Origin: Laetmonice hystrix
Lineage: Eukaryota
DNA: 64,000 bases
Reading direction: 5' to 3'
NCBI GenBank assembly: GCA_965235115.1
Contig: OZ249447.1
Location: 9,424,001-9,488,000 of the forward strand
A program made the position numbers. Within the stretch, counting starts at the first letter, position 1; the number at the start of each line of letters is the position of its first letter. Shown here one piece after another: positions 24,001-57,000 of the stretch.

Positions 24001-27000
24001 ACAGAAGCTCACATCCACCTTGCCCAGGTACTTGAACAAGTCAATGCTGTCACTGGAGAACTTTTTGCATCAGAAGTAATGAAGAATGCAAGTTGGGGTC
24101 CAGAACACAGTGCTGGTCAAGCTACTGAAAATACCATTTATGACTGGAGCAGTGGACTGGACGACGCTGACGATTCCAACATCTACTTCAGTCCAGATGA
24201 AGGCAATGTCGTTTTTGCCAGCACCCTTGATGGATGGGGATTTGGAGTAGAACATTTTGCAGTACAGTGGGCAGACAAACTCGGAATTGATGCAGGAGTT
24301 TTAAAGAAAACACTTTGGGGAGATTTCTACTGGGAATCCAAGACAAAACAAATAAGGAAAGGAGCCCAAGCCAAGGGTAGAAAGGCACTCTTTGTACAAC
24401 TTGTGCTTGAGCAAGTGTGGGCTGTCTATGAAGCTGTCATATCCAGGAATAAGGAAAAAGTTGAGAAGATAGTGAAAACATTGAAACTGAAGATTTTGGA
24501 GCGAGATTATCGTCAGAATGATCCTCGAGTGCTAATACAGGCTGTGTGCACACAGTGGCTCCCACTCTCTCAAGCTGTGTTAGAAATGGTCGTTTTGAAG
24601 CTTCCAAGCCCTTTAAACATCAGTTTGGATCGTGCGAAGAAACTGCTGTGCCCTGCCACAAAACGTTTTTCTTCACTTGAGTCTCAAACTCAAGGACTAA
24701 AAGACAATATTTTAGCATGCAGTCCATCAGCTGAGTCTCCAGTCGTTGTTCTTGTGTCAAAGATGTTGCCAATTTCAAAGTCTCTTTTGCCTGGCAATAG
24801 ACGAAGAATATTATCTCCAGAGGAACTGGCAGTACGGCATGAAGCTGCACGGGCTAGGAATGCGGAAAGGATGTCAGGCAGGAGTTTGACTTCAAACAGT
24901 GGTGAAACTGAGCTAAAACCATTCAAAGCTGCAGAAGATGTGAAATCCACAGAAGAACCAGCAAACAGCTCTGATGAGACTTTTGTAGCATTTGCACGTG
25001 TGTTCAGTGGTACAGTTCGAAAGGGTCAGAAACTGTATGTGTTGGGATCTAAACATGACCCAGCCAAGGCACTCAAGTTGATTGCTGAAAGTGTGGAACC
25101 TGGTAGCCCAAAGACAGTTCAACAACTGAGCGACTACAACCACATGACTGTGGCTACTATTGACAGTGTTTTCCTCTTCATGGGTCGAGAGCTTGAAATG
25201 CTTGAGGAGATACCAGCTGGAAATATAGTTGGACTTGGAGGCTTGGAAGAGCATGTCCTCAAATCGGCAACTTTATCCAGCACAGTAGCTTGCCCGTCAT
25301 TCACAGGCATGCGCCTTGAAGCAACTCCAATTGTAAGAGTAGCTATAGAGCCAAAGAAAGCAGAGAACATGAGTGCAATAATAACAGGTATGCGACTGCT
25401 GAACCAGAGTGACCCAAGCGTTGAGGTGTTGGTACAGGAAAATGGCCAACATGTTATCATTGCCACTGGAGAAGTACATCTACAAAAGTGTATTGATGAT
25501 CTACAGAATCAGTTTGCCAAAGTGGAAATAAAGCAGTCATCACCGATTGTGCCATTTCGTGAAACAATCATACTGCCTGAGAAGACAGCCAAAGTGAATG
25601 AATTCAATTCAACCACAGTAACAATGAAGGGCGAGCTACAAGAGGATGGGAGAGAAAATATTAAAGCGAAAGATCAGGGCACCATCAGCCTCACCACACC
25701 AAATCAAGCATGCAGCATTAGTGTCCTTGCCTTGCCATTACCAGAAACGGTTGTGAGTCTATTGGAGGAGAACAAGGACATGATTAAATCTCTTGTCCAA
25801 CATACCTCTGCACTTGTGGCAGGAAACAATGAACTTCAGCAAGATCACCTGAATGAGGAGACTGTTGCAGAAATCCTTGAGTTACGACATAAGCTCGATA
25901 AGGCATTCAGTTCTGCAGGTCCCCAGTGGGAAGGAGCTGTAGAGCAGATATGGGCTTTTGGCCCTCGAGGAAAAGGGCCAAATCTATTGTTAAATCAGAT
26001 CAAAGACTATGAACGGCCAAACATGTGGGATTGTCTTGAAGAAAACAAAAATGAGAAAAGTCTTAATTTGAGAGATTTCGACAGTAGTGTTGTGAGTGGC
26101 TTTCAAATGGCCACCCAGTCAGGACCTTTATGTGAAGAGCCAATGCGGGGAGTTGCATTTATTGTAGAAGACTGGAGAATCCTTCAGGTATCAGACTCTA
26201 ATGAAAAAACATTAGGTCAAAATGCAGAATGTCAAGATGAAAGTCAAGGAATGCCTGATGTCCAGAACCTTCTACTGTGTGATAATAAATCTAAGCAAGG
26301 TTCTGAGTCCGAATGTTTTAAGATGGGAGTGGCTGGGAAACAAGGAAGCCCTTTCTCCAGTGAAGAAGCAACAGCTTGTGCAAGAGAGCAAAAGGTAGCA
26401 GGAACTGTAGAAGACAAGACAGCCAGTATTTCTTCTAAGTTAAACATTCACGGCCCTCTTAGTGGCCAGCTCATGTCTATAATGAAGGATGCATGCAGAC
26501 GTGCCTTCCAGTGCCAACCTCAACGTCTTATGGTAGCCATGTATACATGTGACATCCAGGTCACAAGTGATGTGTTAGGTAAAATGTATGCTGTTCTTGG
26601 AAAGCGTCGAGGCAGAATCCAGGAGGAGGACCTCCTGGAAGGTTCATCTCTATTCAAAGTTAAAGCCACACTCCCTGTCATAGAGAGTTTTGGTTTTGCT
26701 GAGGAAATGCGGAAACGAACCAGTGGAATGGCAAGTCCACAACTGTGCTTTACTCATTGGGAGGTTGTGGACATTGATCCTTTCTGGGTTCCAAGGACAG
26801 AAGAGGAATACTTGCATTTTGGCGAGAAGGCAGACTCAGAAAATGTGGCGAGGCAGTATATGAACAAGGTGCGACAAAGGAAAGGGCTGAGGATAGATCA
26901 AAAATTTGTTGAATTTGGAGAAAAGCAACGTACACTCTCTAAAAATAAATAAAATAATTGGTAAGCTCAAGATTTTGAACATCCCCCATTCAGAATCAGA

Positions 27001-54000: not shown

Positions 54001-57000
54001 GTCACATAGATTACGTAACGCTATTCTGACCATAATCTGACACCCCACCCCCGTATCAATGGAGCTTTATAATGGACTGTAACGCTTGGACACCCCCCCC
54101 CCCTTTTCACCCGCACACCCTAACTTCATGAGCGTTACGTTATTTAGGCCTATGGACGGCCCCTATGGACTATAGGCACTCACGCTGTCCGCTTAAAAGC
54201 AGTATACTGAGTGTCTCGGCAGCATTAGCCCATTGTGGGGAAGTTACCAACTCACGGGCTAGAGCTAGGCCGCCTACCTGTGTGCGTAGACCTCCCTCGG
54301 CTCCCAGCATAAGCTGGTCCCAGACGCTCTCGATAGGGGTCGCTGGCGTTTAAATCCGCTATCAACCTATGTCCTAGCCGGAAACCTCCGGGGCCTGTCT
54401 TACTAACGAAGATCCTCAGCAAATTCCCACCAAAGTCCCCATATCGGAGATATTCCAGTTGTGAGGTTTTTGAGACAAAAATAAAACTCCCCATTGAAAC
54501 AGTATTTGAGAGATATCCTCAATATGGGATCGACGCCTGATTTTAGTGATATCAATCAAGCTCCAACAGCGCCCCCTATCAGATGCCCAGTGCGGCAAAA
54601 GCAAATTCGATCATGTTATTTTCTGATGTTAAAATTTGAAGAGCTACCCGCGATTAGGCCTACTGCTGATTATACGATAAGCTTACAGACATGGACATTG
54701 AACATGATTGGAATTAGGCCTGCGTGCCTTTTACTTTTCCTAACCCGGAGCCATACCTATATCTTTATTAATGAGAAGGCTATAATAATAGCCTAGTAGG
54801 CCTATAGCCTAACCTATAGTATAGGCCCCTAGCTATACCTGGTAGAGATCACGATGACTCTGAAATAAAGAATATAGGCCTATGCTGCGTTCGCCTGATC
54901 TCTTTTAATATTCTTTTAGAATGCCTTTTACTGTTAAAGTTTTATCTAATTTAGGTGGGCCTAATTAAGGTCCTATCTTATCTAGGCAGGGCCTAGACAT
55001 ATGTCTCAGATCTAGCATCTAGGCCTAGATCGCCTAGGCCTAATTAGCTGTATAGCCCTAGCCTGCAGTTCAAATTAGAGACGATCGAACCTGCTTGTAA
55101 AACATTTTAAAATATAAATTCAATTTTTAAAGGGCAGACGTGATCAATGGCGGATTCGCGGGGGGTTCAAAATTGTCTTGGGGGGAGGACCCCCAGACCC
55201 CGCCTTTGGCGCTCGTAAGTTATGCTTTTCCCGATGCCCCCCCCCCCCCACACACACATTTTCTGGATCCGCCCCTGGTGATCTTTGGAGATCATTAAAT
55301 CGCTGAGCCGCAGTTCTTTTACTATGTTTTTCTGCCTCTAGGTACTCGGATAAGGCGTCTTGTTATTTCGCGCGTGTAGTAGGCGGTACGTCTTATACTT
55401 ATTTCTATTCGCGCACTTGACTGAATCAGCAAACAATCATGGCGGACGGAGCCGAAAAAGAAAAGCTGCCCGCTGAAGATGTGCCTGAAGGGGACGAACC
55501 TGGTGCCAGCAGGAGCTCAATGTTAATATCAGACTCTTACGAAGATCTAGCTAGTATTCTGGCGGAGCAGTGCACGACAGCGGAGAGACAGCGATTGCGT
55601 AGTGGCACTATTAACGAGATTACGGGCGAGCAGGGGGAGGACTCAACGTCCGCCAGTTCACGAGCAGATGACGCCTCGGTGGCTGACTCCGTGGACAGTG
55701 AGGGGAGTGGACCGTCTAACAATGTCAACAGTGGCACTGGCACTGAGGTTGGCTTCTTGTTAGTCCATCATTTATGAATATTTTCTATGTAAAGGGAGGT
55801 CATAACTCATTATATTTATAAAGAAAGGGCATAGCCTATTTCATTTTGTTGGGGGGGGGGGGGGGTACTCCAACAAGTCAGAGTCCTAGTCCTTACGTCC
55901 ATACGGACTCTGACCGTCGAGGACAAATGTGCCAGCGACTGCTATGCTGCCGGGGTTCTATCTCGGTCCTATCGCGCATCATCGCCCCAAAGTCATGTTT
56001 CAGACCACTTTTGGCACTGAAACTTGCTGAGAGTACACAAAAGAGGTTACTTCAACAGATACGTAAATGTATTTTGTTGGATGTTATCTTAGTAGGTGAA
56101 ATTCTCAGTTTGTTTGGTCAAATACAGCGCAGCGTGGGTGACGAGCGGTGACCCAGTTTATCGCGTGTGCGTATTTTCGACCTCTAGAGTGGATCCGGAA
56201 CGGACCGCATAAGTAGGTTGCGCTCTGTTCAAGCAGACGCTGACGGCACAGAGTGAAGCTACCCGTTTCGGGTACCAGTAGCGATCTAACCTTTATCAGT
56301 TCCCGGTCACTCGGTGCACTGCAGATGGCTGACGGACCTACGGACCCGACATGCTCGTAAACAACCGGACCGTGTGGACGTTATATTTGTCCAATAATTA
56401 TAATCAAGGTCGGAATAGAAATTTCAATACCGTGGCTCTCTATAAAAATCGATTTCATACTCCGTGGAAGAAGTTTAGTACCAAAACGAAGGCCGCAAAG
56501 TTGCGATAACGGACCTCTTCGCAGAGGGTCGATGAGTCGCTAGGCCAGCGTCACTCGACAACTAAACGGTGTTCTGGAAGACACCGTTTAGAAACTGAAC
56601 TAGGGGGGGGGGGGTACTCCTACAACTTAGTCAGAGAAACAAATACACCAGCAACTGCTATCCTGCCGGGGTTCTATCTCGGTCCTATCGCTCATCATCG
56701 CCTCAAAGTCATGTTTCAGACCACTTTTAGCACTGAAACTTGCTGAGAGTACACAAAAGAGGTTAATTCAAGTTTCAACAGATACGTAAATGTATTTTGT
56801 TGGATGTTATCTTAGTAGGTGAAATTCTCAGTTTGTTTGGTCAAATACAGTGCAGCGCGGGTGACAAGCGGTGACCCAGTTTATCGGGTGTGCGTATTTC
56901 CGACCTCTACAGTGGATCCGGAACGGACCGCATAAGTAGGTCGCGCTACCTGCTTAAGCAGACGCTGACGGCACAGAGTGAAGCTACCCGTTTTGGGTAC

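What the first reader, a model, noticed from the sequence alone, without database searches (positions are those of the whole stretch)
24682..55035. Tandem triplication in which all three transporter genes stay intact while the co-duplicated EFL1 pieces decay
Seen: three SLC43A3-like genes with identical exon lengths (1542 nt CDS), intact splice sites and no stops. Their introns and flanks carry many indels and insertions, and the adjacent EFL1 fragments carry frameshifts and stops. Established: SLC43 proteins are Na-independent amino-acid (LAT3/4) or nucleobase (ENBT1) transporters. Inference: selection retains extra transporter copies for dosage or diversification, with the EFL1 passenger as a built-in neutral control.
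Basis: partly seen in the sequence, partly recalled or inferred. Interest (0 to 1): 0.68.

Follow-up and report, generated by a model that had tools for sequence, protein, structure and literature searches.

The report
Three-copy SLC43 transporter gene array
An invertebrate genome carries three head-to-tail copies of a membrane transporter gene that selection has kept readable while truncated pieces of the neighbouring EFL1 gene copied with them decay, an ordinary but clean example of young tandem gene duplication.

Summary
The triplication is real in the sequence. The units are 24682-35524, 35525-45722 and 45723-~55035, 92-97% alike. The window is invertebrate, not human.

Each unit holds an 8-exon SLC43-family gene. 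Units 2 and 3 each begin with a 1.4-kb internal piece of the intact, intronless EFL1 gene (23524-26952), which straddles the left breakpoint.

Exons 1-7 have identical lengths and all AG/GT sites in 3 of 3 copies. Copy 2 has a 4-bp insertion that reframes its last 22 codons. Its CDS is 1542 nt; copies 1 and 3 have 1551 nt.

Selection is supported:
- Pairwise dN/dS is 0.18-0.27.
- Copy-specific synonymous:nonsynonymous changes are 12:6 in the transporters and 10:23 in the EFL1 pieces (Fisher p=0.018).
- Ten indel events hit the EFL1 pieces; two hit the transporter coding stretch.

Relationships among units change along the repeat, so unequal crossing-over or gene conversion shaped it. Replacements are few and mostly conservative, so nothing points to diversification.

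Read depth and expression could not be checked. Ordinary biology; a new member of a known kind.

The parts
23524..26952 (+). Intact, intronless EFL1 (elongation factor-like GTPase 1) gene, 1142 codons. Its 5' 1158 nt lie outside the repeat and the rest lies in unit 1.
   Evidence: Single open frame. Pfam GTP_EFTU, EFL1, EFG_C, GTP_EFTU_D2 and EFG_III all score above their cut-offs. PDB 5anb_K scores 1234 bits over residues 4-907. It is 51-59% identical to EFL1 of many animals at 99-100% coverage.
24682..35524 (+). Repeat unit 1
   Evidence: Self-BLASTN and the three-unit alignment.
35525..45722 (+). Repeat unit 2
45723..55035 (+). Repeat unit 3. Its right end runs into unique sequence.
   Evidence: The end of unit 3 shares with the 1->2 junction the stretch that precedes the EFL1 breakpoint.
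28403..31952 (+). SLC43-like gene, copy 1. Exons: 28403-28797 (probable start ATG at 28427), 29130-29176, 29535-29611, 29791-29883, 30073-30508, 30817-30918, 31257-31443 and 31715-31952 (stop).
   Evidence: Splice sites. Colinear TBLASTN hits of full-length relatives. A profile of 45 relatives maps the exons in order to positions 5-479 of 505.
39080..42805 (+). SLC43-like gene, copy 2. Exons: 39080-39474, 39812-39858, 40333-40409, 40623-40715, 40905-41340, 41658-41759, 42120-42306 and 42577-42805. The last exon is frameshifted by a 4-bp insertion at about 42745-42748. A 17-bp insertion (about 42814-42830) lies behind the new stop.
   Evidence: The profile match of exon 8 stops at position 458 instead of 479. 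The hydrophobic tail segment is lost.
49100..52834 (+). SLC43-like gene, copy 3. Exons: 49100-49494, 49823-49869, 50349-50425, 50639-50731, 50921-51356, 51678-51779, 52143-52329 and 52597-52834.
35525..36940 (+). EFL1 pseudogene fragment of unit 2, corresponding to parent 24682-26112. It has no start and no 3' third.
   Evidence: Indels relative to the parent: shared 16-bp deletion, shared 3-bp insertion, shared 1-bp deletion, own 3-bp deletion and own 2-bp insertion. It has 2 substitution stops and the frame is broken into pieces.
45723..47130 (+). EFL1 pseudogene fragment of unit 3
   Evidence: It has the three shared indels plus its own 10-bp and 4-bp insertions and its own 1-, 8- and 4-bp deletions. 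It has 1 substitution stop.
31451..32300 (+). Stretch (last intron, exon 8 and 3' flank) where unit 1 and unit 3 are nearly identical and unit 2 is the odd one. It is a probable gene-conversion tract. The counterpart in unit 3 is about 52330-53180.
   Evidence: Differences: u1-u3 1.3%, u1-u2 5.7%, u2-u3 5.0%. In 27809-31450 they are 4.7%, 4.3% and 1.9%.
34031..34455 (+). Stretch where units 1 and 2 are closest and unit 3 is the odd one, as expected for a hybrid middle unit made by unequal crossing-over.
   Evidence: Differences: u1-u2 3.3%, u1-u3 9.6%, u2-u3 9.3%. BLASTN identity is 97.2% against 86.4%.
44572..44803 (+). Extra stray copy of the 3' part of exon 8 inside unit 2. It is of the copy-2 type but lacks the 4-bp insertion.
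   Evidence: It is 97.5% identical to 42667-42902. See also the alignment and translation.

Best explanation
This is a young tandem array in an invertebrate genome, probably a lophotrochozoan.

How it arose: a segmental duplication had its left breakpoint inside the intronless EFL1 gene and its right breakpoint about 3.5 kb behind an SLC43-family (ENBT1/SLC43A3-like) transporter gene. It produced a second transporter gene plus a promoter-less, 5'-truncated EFL1 piece. That piece then lost its 3' third. Unequal crossing-over between the two units then made a third unit, and at least one gene-conversion event followed.

What happened since: the full EFL1 gene survives because its 5' end lies outside the repeat. 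The EFL1 pieces were dead on arrival and drift neutrally. All three transporter genes kept their proximal upstream DNA (about 590 bp), all splice sites and their reading frames. They have evolved under purifying selection since each duplication, so they are most likely expressed, working paralogues kept for dose or for differently regulated expression. Copy 2 has recently acquired a frameshift that replaces the last 22 residues (the end of predicted TM12 and the tail). It may be the first copy on its way to loss.

Shown here: the anatomy, the substitution and indel contrasts, and the mosaic relationships. Inferred: the order of events, expression, the transport function and the reason for retention.
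For: Structure:
- Three units, head to tail.
- The stretch leading into the EFL1 breakpoint at junction 1->2 recurs at the end of unit 3. Junction 2->3 carries its own ~130-bp deletion.

Gene model:
- Exons 1-7 have equal length in 3 of 3 copies, with all AG/GT kept.
- A profile of 45 relatives maps the 8 exon peptides in order and without a gap to positions 5-479 of 505. E-values run from 2e-39 to 0.03; the weakest is the 15-residue exon 2.
- 14 of the 24 relatives that match the exon-8 peptide (49 were compared) align past the false donor site at 31832. Exon 8 therefore runs to the stop at 31952.

Family:
- The exon-1 peptide hits the PDB chains of LAT4 (7.6e-10) and ENBT1 (9e-6), including the shared C-x-AQD...F-L motif.
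- The nearest named relatives are annotated ENBT1-like or SLC43A3-like.
- Summed per-exon scores are 262-245 bits for the four best ENBT1/SLC43A3-like proteins and 169 and 161 for the two LAT4-like ones.

Selection:
- dN/dS is 0.257, 0.271 and 0.183, with p=1e-4 to 5e-4.
- Branch counts (synonymous:nonsynonymous) are 6:2 for copy 2, 6:4 for copy 3 and 14:13 for the remaining branch. The EFL1 pieces show 4:10 and 6:13. Fisher p=0.018.
- Intron divergence between copies 2 and 3 (0.023) equals the sum of the two EFL1-piece branches: (14+19)/1368=0.024.
- Indels: none in exons 1-7 of any copy. The EFL1-piece rate predicts at least 10.8 events in the coding stretch; 2 were seen (Poisson p=0.0014). 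Intron rates predict 21.8 and 22.7; 2 and 0 were seen.

Mosaic history.
Against: - Copy 2's last exon is frameshifted. The reframed tail no longer matches the family profile and loses the hydrophobic segment in a crude hydropathy scan. Copy 2 may therefore be impaired.
- The counts on the copy-specific branches are small: 8 and 10 substitutions.
- The exon 8 of copy 3 is not independent evidence, because it looks converted from copy 1.
- No reads, transcripts or population data were available. Neither the reality of the third unit nor expression of any copy is shown.
- Gene conversion from a working copy could mimic constraint. However, exons 1-7 and their introns in copies 2 and 3 share many differences from copy 1, which argues against recent conversion there.
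- The exon-1 peptide alone scores better against LAT4 than against ENBT1. The subfamily assignment therefore rests on summed weak per-exon scores and on names given by automatic annotation.
Confidence: 0.72

Rival explanations
1. Assembly artefact. Units 2 and 3 would be the two haplotypes of one unit, wrongly laid in tandem. The true locus would then be a duplication (two units), or, less likely, a single copy.
For: Units 2 and 3 differ by only about 1.9-2.3% in neutral sequence and 4.7 indel events/kb. That is within the range of allelic difference recalled for highly heterozygous marine invertebrates; this range is recalled, not tested here. No read data could be consulted.
Against: - There is no N or gap anywhere in the window.
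- Two haplotypes cannot give three units, so at least one true duplication remains.
- The relationships are mosaic. Unit 3 is closest to unit 1 in 31451-32300, and unit 2 is closest to unit 1 in 34031-34455. That fits recombination among paralogues better than two alleles.
- Unit 2 has private structure: a 366-bp insertion at about 42918 that units 1 and 3 lack, a stray exon-8 piece at 44572-44803, and a 4-bp frameshift.
- Junction 2->3 has a private ~130-bp deletion.
Confidence: 0.12
2. Only copy 1 is a working gene. Copies 2 and 3 would be silent duplicates that are too young, or too often overwritten by gene conversion, to show decay yet. The frameshift in copy 2 would be the first visible lesion.
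For: Copy 2 has a frameshift in its last exon. A conversion tract from copy 1 into copy 3, or the reverse, covers exon 8, showing that conversion does act in this array. The copy-specific substitution counts are small.
Against: - Over the same time the neighbouring EFL1 pieces collected 2 and 5 private indels and 10 and 13 nonsynonymous-type changes. Copies 2 and 3 collected no indel in exons 1-7 and only 2 and 4 nonsynonymous changes.
- P(no indel in 1551 nt) at the mean EFL1-piece branch rate is 0.022.
- Synonymous:nonsynonymous ratios differ from neutral at p=0.003 for copy 2 and p=0.015 for copy 3.
- In 27809-31450, copies 2 and 3 share their differences from copy 1 in exons and introns alike. 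They have therefore not been recently overwritten by copy 1 there.
Confidence: 0.13
3. Adaptive diversification. The copies would be kept because they have acquired different substrate specificities (neofunctionalisation).
For: Copy 1 differs from copies 2 and 3 at 13 residues. Two of them lie in exon 3, which homology places in a transmembrane stretch. The C-terminus of copy 2 is different.
Against: - dN/dS is well below 1 on every branch.
- Most replacements are conservative (F/L, K/R, I/M, Q/R/H).
- Many sit in the TM1-TM2 loop and in the long central loop encoded by exon 5.
- Copies 2 and 3 differ at only 5 residues before the frameshift.
Confidence: 0.04

Closest known systems
ENBT1 / SLC43A3 (equilibrative nucleobase transporter 1; PDB 9l38) and its invertebrate 'ENBT1-like' relatives
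   Same: The length is similar: 516 residues against 491 for the PDB chain. Exon peptides align in order with full-length ENBT1-like proteins of Mya, Lineus, Haliotis and Littorina. The motif C-x-AQD...F-L ahead of TM2 is shared. The nemertean relative P0142 matches ENBT1 at 206 bits against 96 for LAT4.
   Different: Direct matches of single exon peptides to the human protein are weak: 9e-6 for exon 1, 0.054 for exon 5 and 0.79 for exon 8. Identity to the best named invertebrate relatives is only about 25-55% per exon. The substrate is unknown. Here the gene is present in three tandem copies.
LAT4 / SLC43A2 (PDB 9jbs) and LAT3, the amino-acid carriers of the same family
   Same: LAT4 is the best single PDB match of exon 1: 7.6e-10, 105 residues aligned over TM1, the loop and TM2.
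   Different: Over all exons, the two proteins annotated LAT4-like score lowest but two among 17 compared. Their summed scores are 169 and 161 bits, against 262-245 for the four best ENBT1/SLC43A3-like proteins.
Lineage-specific tandem or near-identical duplicates of SLC43A3-like genes in other invertebrates
   Same: Clusters at 90% identity hold several distinct accessions from one species. Examples are Mya arenaria (two RefSeq proteins on one 71.6-Mb contig), Ciona intestinalis, Diadema antillarum and Dermatophagoides. A 982-residue prediction from Antedon holds two MFS_1 stretches, as if two neighbouring genes were fused.
   Different: The genomic arrangement of those genes was not examined, because no eukaryote contig collection was on hand. 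Some accessions may be isoforms or duplicate annotations.
Partial gene copies at the edge of tandem segmental duplications (dead-on-arrival pseudogene fragments); recalled general knowledge, not from a call
   Same: The EFL1 pieces lack the start and upstream region from birth. They evolve at the intron rate with omega near the neutral value.
   Different: Nothing unusual. The only extra is that the parent gene is intronless, so the piece is one uninterrupted stretch of former coding sequence. That makes it a convenient neutral yardstick.

Membership tests
SLC43 family of the major facilitator superfamily | Sequence similarity to SLC43 proteins along the whole length, in order | tested here: met
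   Tested exon by exon only. A profile of 45 relatives places exons 1-8 at positions 5-122, 125-139, 141-163, 166-196, 198-317, 322-352, 362-410 and 419-479 of 505. The relatives were found with exon 1, so its own score is partly circular; exons 2-8 are independent. Relatives P0142, P0140 and P0209 carry Pfam MFS_1 above cut-off.
SLC43 family of the major facilitator superfamily | Long extracellular TM1-TM2 loop ending in a conserved Cys and AQD motif before TM2 (feature read from the alignments, name recalled) | tested here: met
   HMMER alignments of the exon-1 peptide to LAT4 and ENBT1 chains align 'dCpAQDsnFsLayT' with 'sCqAQDemlnLAfT' and 'dCkAQDerFsLifT'.
SLC43 family of the major facilitator superfamily | Twelve transmembrane helices with a large central cytoplasmic loop | tested here: inconclusive
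   Only a crude Kyte-Doolittle scan per exon was run. It gives overlapping hydrophobic segments in every exon and an ~85-residue hydrophilic stretch in exon 5. No structure prediction was made, because the joined protein was deliberately not assembled.
ENBT1/SLC43A3 subfamily (as against LAT3/LAT4) | Closer to ENBT1-type than to LAT-type proteins | tested here: inconclusive
   For: summed per-exon scores favour the ENBT1/SLC43A3-like proteins, and relative P0142 prefers ENBT1 by 206 to 96 bits. Against: exon 1 alone scores higher with LAT4. No tree was built with vertebrate SLC43A1-3.
ENBT1/SLC43A3 subfamily | Sodium-independent transport of purine nucleobases | not testable with these tools
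   Needs uptake assays.
Tandem segmental duplication shaped by non-allelic homologous recombination | Head-to-tail units in one orientation with a recurring junction | tested here: met
Tandem segmental duplication shaped by non-allelic homologous recombination | Relationships among units that change along the repeat (hybrid units, conversion tracts) | tested here: met
   The grouping is (1,(2,3)) in 27809-31450, (2,(1,3)) in 31451-32300 and ((1,2),3) in 34031-34455.
Tandem segmental duplication (real, not assembly artefact) | Support from spanning reads and normal read depth | not testable with these tools
   No read data were available. There is no N in the window.
EFL1 / EFTUD1 ribosome-assembly GTPase (the intact gene 23524-26952) | GTPase domain plus EF-G-like domains II-V and the EFL1-specific insertion domain | tested here: met
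   Pfam GTP_EFTU 2.7e-48, EFL1 4.1e-21, EFG_C 2e-16, GTP_EFTU_D2 and EFG_III. PDB 5anb_K scores 1234 bits.
Pseudogene fragment (the EFL1 pieces) | Truncated, frame disrupted, evolving without constraint | tested here: met
   The pieces lack parent nt 23524-24681 and 26113-26952. They carry 5 and 8 indel events and 2 and 1 stops. Omega is about 0.72 and 0.63, not different from the neutral expectation (p=0.53 and 0.41).

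The most novel reading that the evidence does not exclude
The array may be a very recent amplification of a nucleobase or amino-acid carrier, driven by selection, in a poorly sampled lophotrochozoan lineage. In this reading gene conversion acts as repair. The copy-2/3 lineage first acquired a damaged 3' end: a 17-bp insertion at the stop, seen in copy 2 and in the stray exon-8 piece. Copy 3 was then restored to the canonical C-terminus by conversion from copy 1, while copy 2 went on to frameshift. 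Together with the uninterrupted ex-coding EFL1 pieces as an internal neutral clock, the locus would let one measure how fast selection and conversion act on newborn duplicates. Separately, the intact intronless EFL1 could be a retrogene that has replaced the intron-bearing original.
Probability: 0.15. Interest if true: 0.4.

Novelty: new member of a known kind. Interest (0 to 1): 0.24.

Why it matters
It matters little beyond annotation. It adds one well-documented case of a young tandem expansion of an SLC43-family carrier in an invertebrate. An unusually tidy internal control sits beside the selected genes: former coding sequence of EFL1 that became neutral at the moment of duplication.

For annotators there are two practical points:
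- The last exon runs through a good-looking GT at 31833.
- Copy 2 differs from copies 1 and 3 at its C-terminus.

If copy number varies in the population, the locus could serve to study dose selection on a transporter. Nothing seen here suggests a new mechanism.

Tried and rejected
- Word-based protein search with the exon-1 peptide and lengths 'longer' found nothing: 321 candidates, none at E<=1e-5. The full HMMER scan then found 254 proteins at E<=0.001.
- Three of the top 150 hits were long proteins with 11-16 matched stretches (P0122, P0158, P0203). They turned out to be bacterial repeat proteins: DUF7507, SdrD_B and bacterial cadherin-like. They are false matches to the low-complexity TM1-TM2 loop. 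The length filters kept them out of the homologue sets used later.
- Pfam on single exon-bearing frames gave no family for 6 of 6 transporter pieces at E<=0.1, apart from two chance hits below cut-off. The pieces are too short for MFS_1.
- PDB searches with the exon-7 and exon-8 peptides gave nothing significant: best E values were 1 and 0.29, with ENBT1 at 0.79.
- A model with a donor at 31832 and a further 3' exon was considered. That would be needed to reach 1542 nt in every copy. It was rejected because 14 of 24 matching relatives align straight across that point into TM12 and the profile match continues to position 479.
- Rfam at gathering thresholds and ARAGORN found no RNA gene in the window: 0 and 0.
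- No poly(A) tail or target-site duplication that would prove a retrogene origin was seen when reading 26900-27860 and 22700-23560.
- Two literature searches returned nothing on SLC43 tandem expansions; only the listings were read. Terms were SLC43A3 + tandem + invertebrate (2 papers, the 1 listed irrelevant) and SLC43 / gene family expansion / tandem duplication (none of the 10 listed mentions SLC43).
- The single-gene EFL1 tree of 27 rows places the window with an unnamed sequence (support 100/99). It joins a brachiopod and an annelid only weakly (82/91, drawn open). The phylum remains uncertain.

Full report
SOURCE AND CONTEXT

The window has no N and is not human. Its only long open frame (23506-26952, + strand) encodes a complete 1142-residue EFL1/EFTUD1 GTPase:
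- Pfam GTP_EFTU, EFL1, EFG_C, GTP_EFTU_D2 and EFG_III all score above their cut-offs.
- The PDB chain 5anb_K scores 1234 bits.
- Identity to animal EFL1 proteins is only 51-59%. The best hit is an unnamed record at 59%, followed by Haliotis (55%), Glandiceps (54%) and Lingula (53%).

In a 27-row tree the window's EFL1 pairs with that unnamed sequence (support 100/99). It joins a brachiopod and an annelid only weakly (82/91). The organism is therefore an invertebrate, probably a lophotrochozoan from a poorly sampled group.

Neighbouring genes:
- An MFS_5 (MFSD5-like) gene on the minus strand, with exon pieces at 15451-15774 and 21463-21747.
- A MON1-like gene downstream, with longin-domain exons at 58118-60190.

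THE REPEAT

Self-BLASTN shows three head-to-tail units: 24682-35524, 35525-45722 and 45723-~55035. Units 2 and 3 are 97.0% identical over 5.6 kb. Unit 1 is 92-96% identical to either.

The left breakpoint lies inside EFL1, at 24682. The DNA that leads into the breakpoint at junction 1->2 recurs at the end of unit 3 before unique sequence begins. Junction 2->3 has lost about 130 bp.

Units 2 and 3 each open with a piece of EFL1 that matches parent nt 24682-26112. Both end at the same right-hand point, so their common ancestor had already lost the 3' third of EFL1.

THE TRANSPORTER GENE MODEL

The spliced model was examined exon by exon.

Copy 1 has eight exons with canonical sites:
- 28403-28797
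- 29130-29176
- 29535-29611
- 29791-29883
- 30073-30508
- 30817-30918
- 31257-31443
- 31715-31952

Full-length relatives were found by an HMMER scan with the exon-1 peptide (254 proteins at E<=0.001). They hit these exons in order by TBLASTN (49 relatives compared, the 12 best printed).

A profile built from 45 relatives places the eight exon peptides at positions 5-122, 125-139, 141-163, 166-196, 198-317, 322-352, 362-410 and 419-479 of 505. No exon is missing.

The best relative starts at residue 9 of the exon-1 frame, so the start is probably the ATG at 28427.

A GT at 31833 looks like a donor but is not used. Of 49 relatives compared, 24 match the exon-8 peptide at E<=1e-3, and 14 of those align across that point into the last helix.

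Exons 1-7 are identical in length in all three copies, with no indel and all AG/GT sites kept.

Exon 8 is 238 nt in copies 1 and 3. Copy 2 carries a 4-bp insertion after the codons for ...LLYRPS. It reframes the last 22 codons into 19 others and a new stop, making exon 8 229 nt (42577-42805).

From the ATG at 28427 the CDS is 1551 nt in copies 1 and 3 and 1542 nt in copy 2.

In copy 2:
- The profile match of exon 8 ends at position 458 instead of 479.
- The hydrophobic tail segment is lost in a crude hydropathy scan.

A stray 232-bp copy of the exon-8 tail (44572-44803) is of the copy-2 type but lacks the 4-bp insertion. Copies 1 and 3 lack it too, so the insertion is derived and private to copy 2.

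FAMILY

The exon-1 peptide matches the PDB chains of LAT4/SLC43A2 (7.6e-10) and ENBT1/SLC43A3 (9e-6). The shared motif C-x-AQD...F-L lies ahead of TM2. Other exons alone are too short or too diverged for significant PDB hits.

Eleven of the 20 relatives looked up are annotated ENBT1-like or SLC43A3-like in their own record. They come from Lineus, Uloborus, Ciona, Mya, Haliotis, Diadema, Acanthaster, Littorina, Lytechinus, Gigantopelta and Dermatophagoides. Two are annotated LAT4-like, from Priapulus and Branchiostoma.

Summed per-exon BLASTP scores:
- 262, 247, 246 and 245 bits for the four best ENBT1/SLC43A3-like proteins.
- 169 and 161 bits for the two LAT4-like proteins.

The nemertean relative P0142 matches ENBT1 at 206 bits against 96 for LAT4.

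The gene is an SLC43-family member. 'SLC43A3-like' is the better label but is not proven, and the substrate is unknown.

SELECTION

Nei-Gojobori counts were summed exon by exon, with split codons left out. Pairwise values for the transporters:

| Pair | dS | dN | dN/dS | Fisher p |
|---|---|---|---|---|
| Copy 1 vs copy 2 | 0.060 | 0.0155 | 0.26 | 1.1e-4 |
| Copy 1 vs copy 3 | 0.059 | 0.0159 | 0.27 | 1.1e-4 |
| Copy 2 vs copy 3 | 0.036 | 0.0066 | 0.18 | 5e-4 |

Branch counts, polarised with copy 1 over 489 codons, against the EFL1 pieces read in the parental register over 456 codons:

| Branch | Synonymous | Nonsynonymous | p vs neutral site proportions |
|---|---|---|---|
| Transporter copy 2 | 6 | 2 | 0.003 |
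| Transporter copy 3 | 6 | 4 | 0.015 |
| Transporter, remaining branch | 14 | 13 | 0.002 |
| EFL1 piece of unit 2 | 4 | 10 | 0.53 |
| EFL1 piece of unit 3 | 6 | 13 | 0.41 |

The direct contrast is 12:6 against 10:23, Fisher p=0.018.

The EFL1 pieces change at the intron rate. Their two branches sum to 33/1368 = 0.024, against an intron distance of 0.023 between copies 2 and 3.

Indels tell the same story:
- The EFL1 pieces carry 3 shared, 2 private and 5 private events in 1.43 kb.
- The stretch homologous to the transporter CDS carries 2 events in total. Both are in copy 2's exon 8, and one of them lies behind copy 2's new stop.
- The EFL1-piece rate predicts at least 10.8 events (Poisson p=0.0014).
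- Intron rates predict 21.8 and 22.7 events; 2 and 0 were seen (p=9e-8 and 1e-10).

Amino-acid differences are few: 13 set copy 1 apart, 1 is private to copy 2 and 3 are private to copy 3, in 497 residues. They are mostly conservative, and many lie in the TM1-TM2 loop and the central loop. The data fit conservation of function and give no sign of diversification.

HISTORY

The three-unit alignment shows that the closest pair changes along the repeat.

| Segment (unit-1 coordinates) | u1-u2 | u1-u3 | u2-u3 | Closest pair |
|---|---|---|---|---|
| 27809-31450 | 4.3% | 4.7% | 1.9% | Units 2 and 3 |
| 31451-32300 (last intron, exon 8, 3' flank) | 5.7% | 1.3% | 5.0% | Units 1 and 3 |
| 34031-34455 | 3.3% | 9.6% | 9.3% | Units 1 and 2 |

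A middle unit whose 5' part resembles the last unit and whose 3' end resembles the first is what unequal crossing-over between two older units produces. The 31451-32300 tract looks like a later gene conversion between copies 1 and 3.

The order of events is inference. The mosaic itself is observed.

WHAT REMAINS OPEN

- No reads, transcripts or population data could be consulted.
- The reality of the third unit therefore rests only on internal evidence: no gap, private structural differences and mosaic relationships. Units 2 and 3 could still be haplotypes.
- Expression of any copy and the consequence of copy 2's reframed C-terminus are untested.
- Two literature searches found nothing specific on SLC43 tandem expansions; only the listings were read.
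- Recent near-identical paralogues of ENBT1-like genes appear in several invertebrates in the protein clusters. Expansion of this family therefore seems common.

VERDICT

This is a real-looking and well-behaved young tandem array. It has purifying selection on the transporter paralogues, dead-on-arrival EFL1 fragments and a first lesion in copy 2. It is an ordinary kind of locus: a new member of a known kind, of low to moderate interest.

Noticed in passing
window 23524-26952 (+): The complete EFL1 gene has no intron, although the neighbouring transporter gene has seven. In the EFL1 tree its end branch is long: 0.72 against 0.39 for its nearest relative. It could be a functional retrogene. No poly(A) remnant was evident when reading its 3' flank.
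   Followed up: partly
whole window, densest in 27000-55100: The palindromic octamer TAGGCCTA occurs 44 times, against 0.95 expected from dinucleotide-preserving shuffles (largest shuffle value 4). The sites lie outside the annotated exons, by comparing the site list with the exon coordinates. Part of the excess comes from the triplication. The cause is unknown: a dispersed element or a genome-wide word bias.
   Followed up: partly
window 44572-44803: A stray 232-bp copy of the 3' part of transporter exon 8 is inserted in the distal part of unit 2. It is 97.5% identical to 42667-42902. It has the 17-bp insertion of copy 2 but not the 4-bp frameshift.
   Followed up: partly
window 32904-34031, and 19286-19669: Unit 1 has a 1.1-kb insertion absent from units 2 and 3. 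Part of it (33062-33443) is 84% identical to 19286-19669 upstream of the array, so it is probably a dispersed repeat or transposon remnant.
   Followed up: no
window 36940-38492 and 47130-48514: In units 2 and 3 the 3' third of EFL1 and its downstream DNA (parent 26113-27383) are replaced by other sequence. That sequence includes a 531-bp stretch absent from unit 1 and an internal short duplication in unit 2, seen as similar frames at 36916-37104 and 37116-37310.
   Followed up: no
window 55923-56613 and 56639-57334: A local tandem duplication of about 700 bp (89% identity) lies just downstream of the array, ahead of the MON1-like longin exons.
   Followed up: no
window 1127-1394 and 4197-4454: An inverted repeat pair of about 270 bp (86% identity) lies far upstream of the finding.
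   Followed up: no
window 15451-21747 (-) and 58118-60190 (+): Flanking genes. An MFS_5 (MFSD5-like, molybdate-anion-transporter-type) gene lies on the minus strand. A MON1-like gene lies on the plus strand, with Fuz_longin_1 and Fuz_longin_3 hits. Its first exons are probably at about 55439-55777 and 57717-57947, which was not verified.
   Followed up: partly
proteins P0127, P0209 cluster, P0161 cluster, P0171 cluster: Other invertebrates hold several near-identical ENBT1-like proteins per species (Mya, Ciona, Diadema). A 982-residue Antedon prediction has two MFS_1 stretches. This hints that recent duplication of this family is common.
   Followed up: partly
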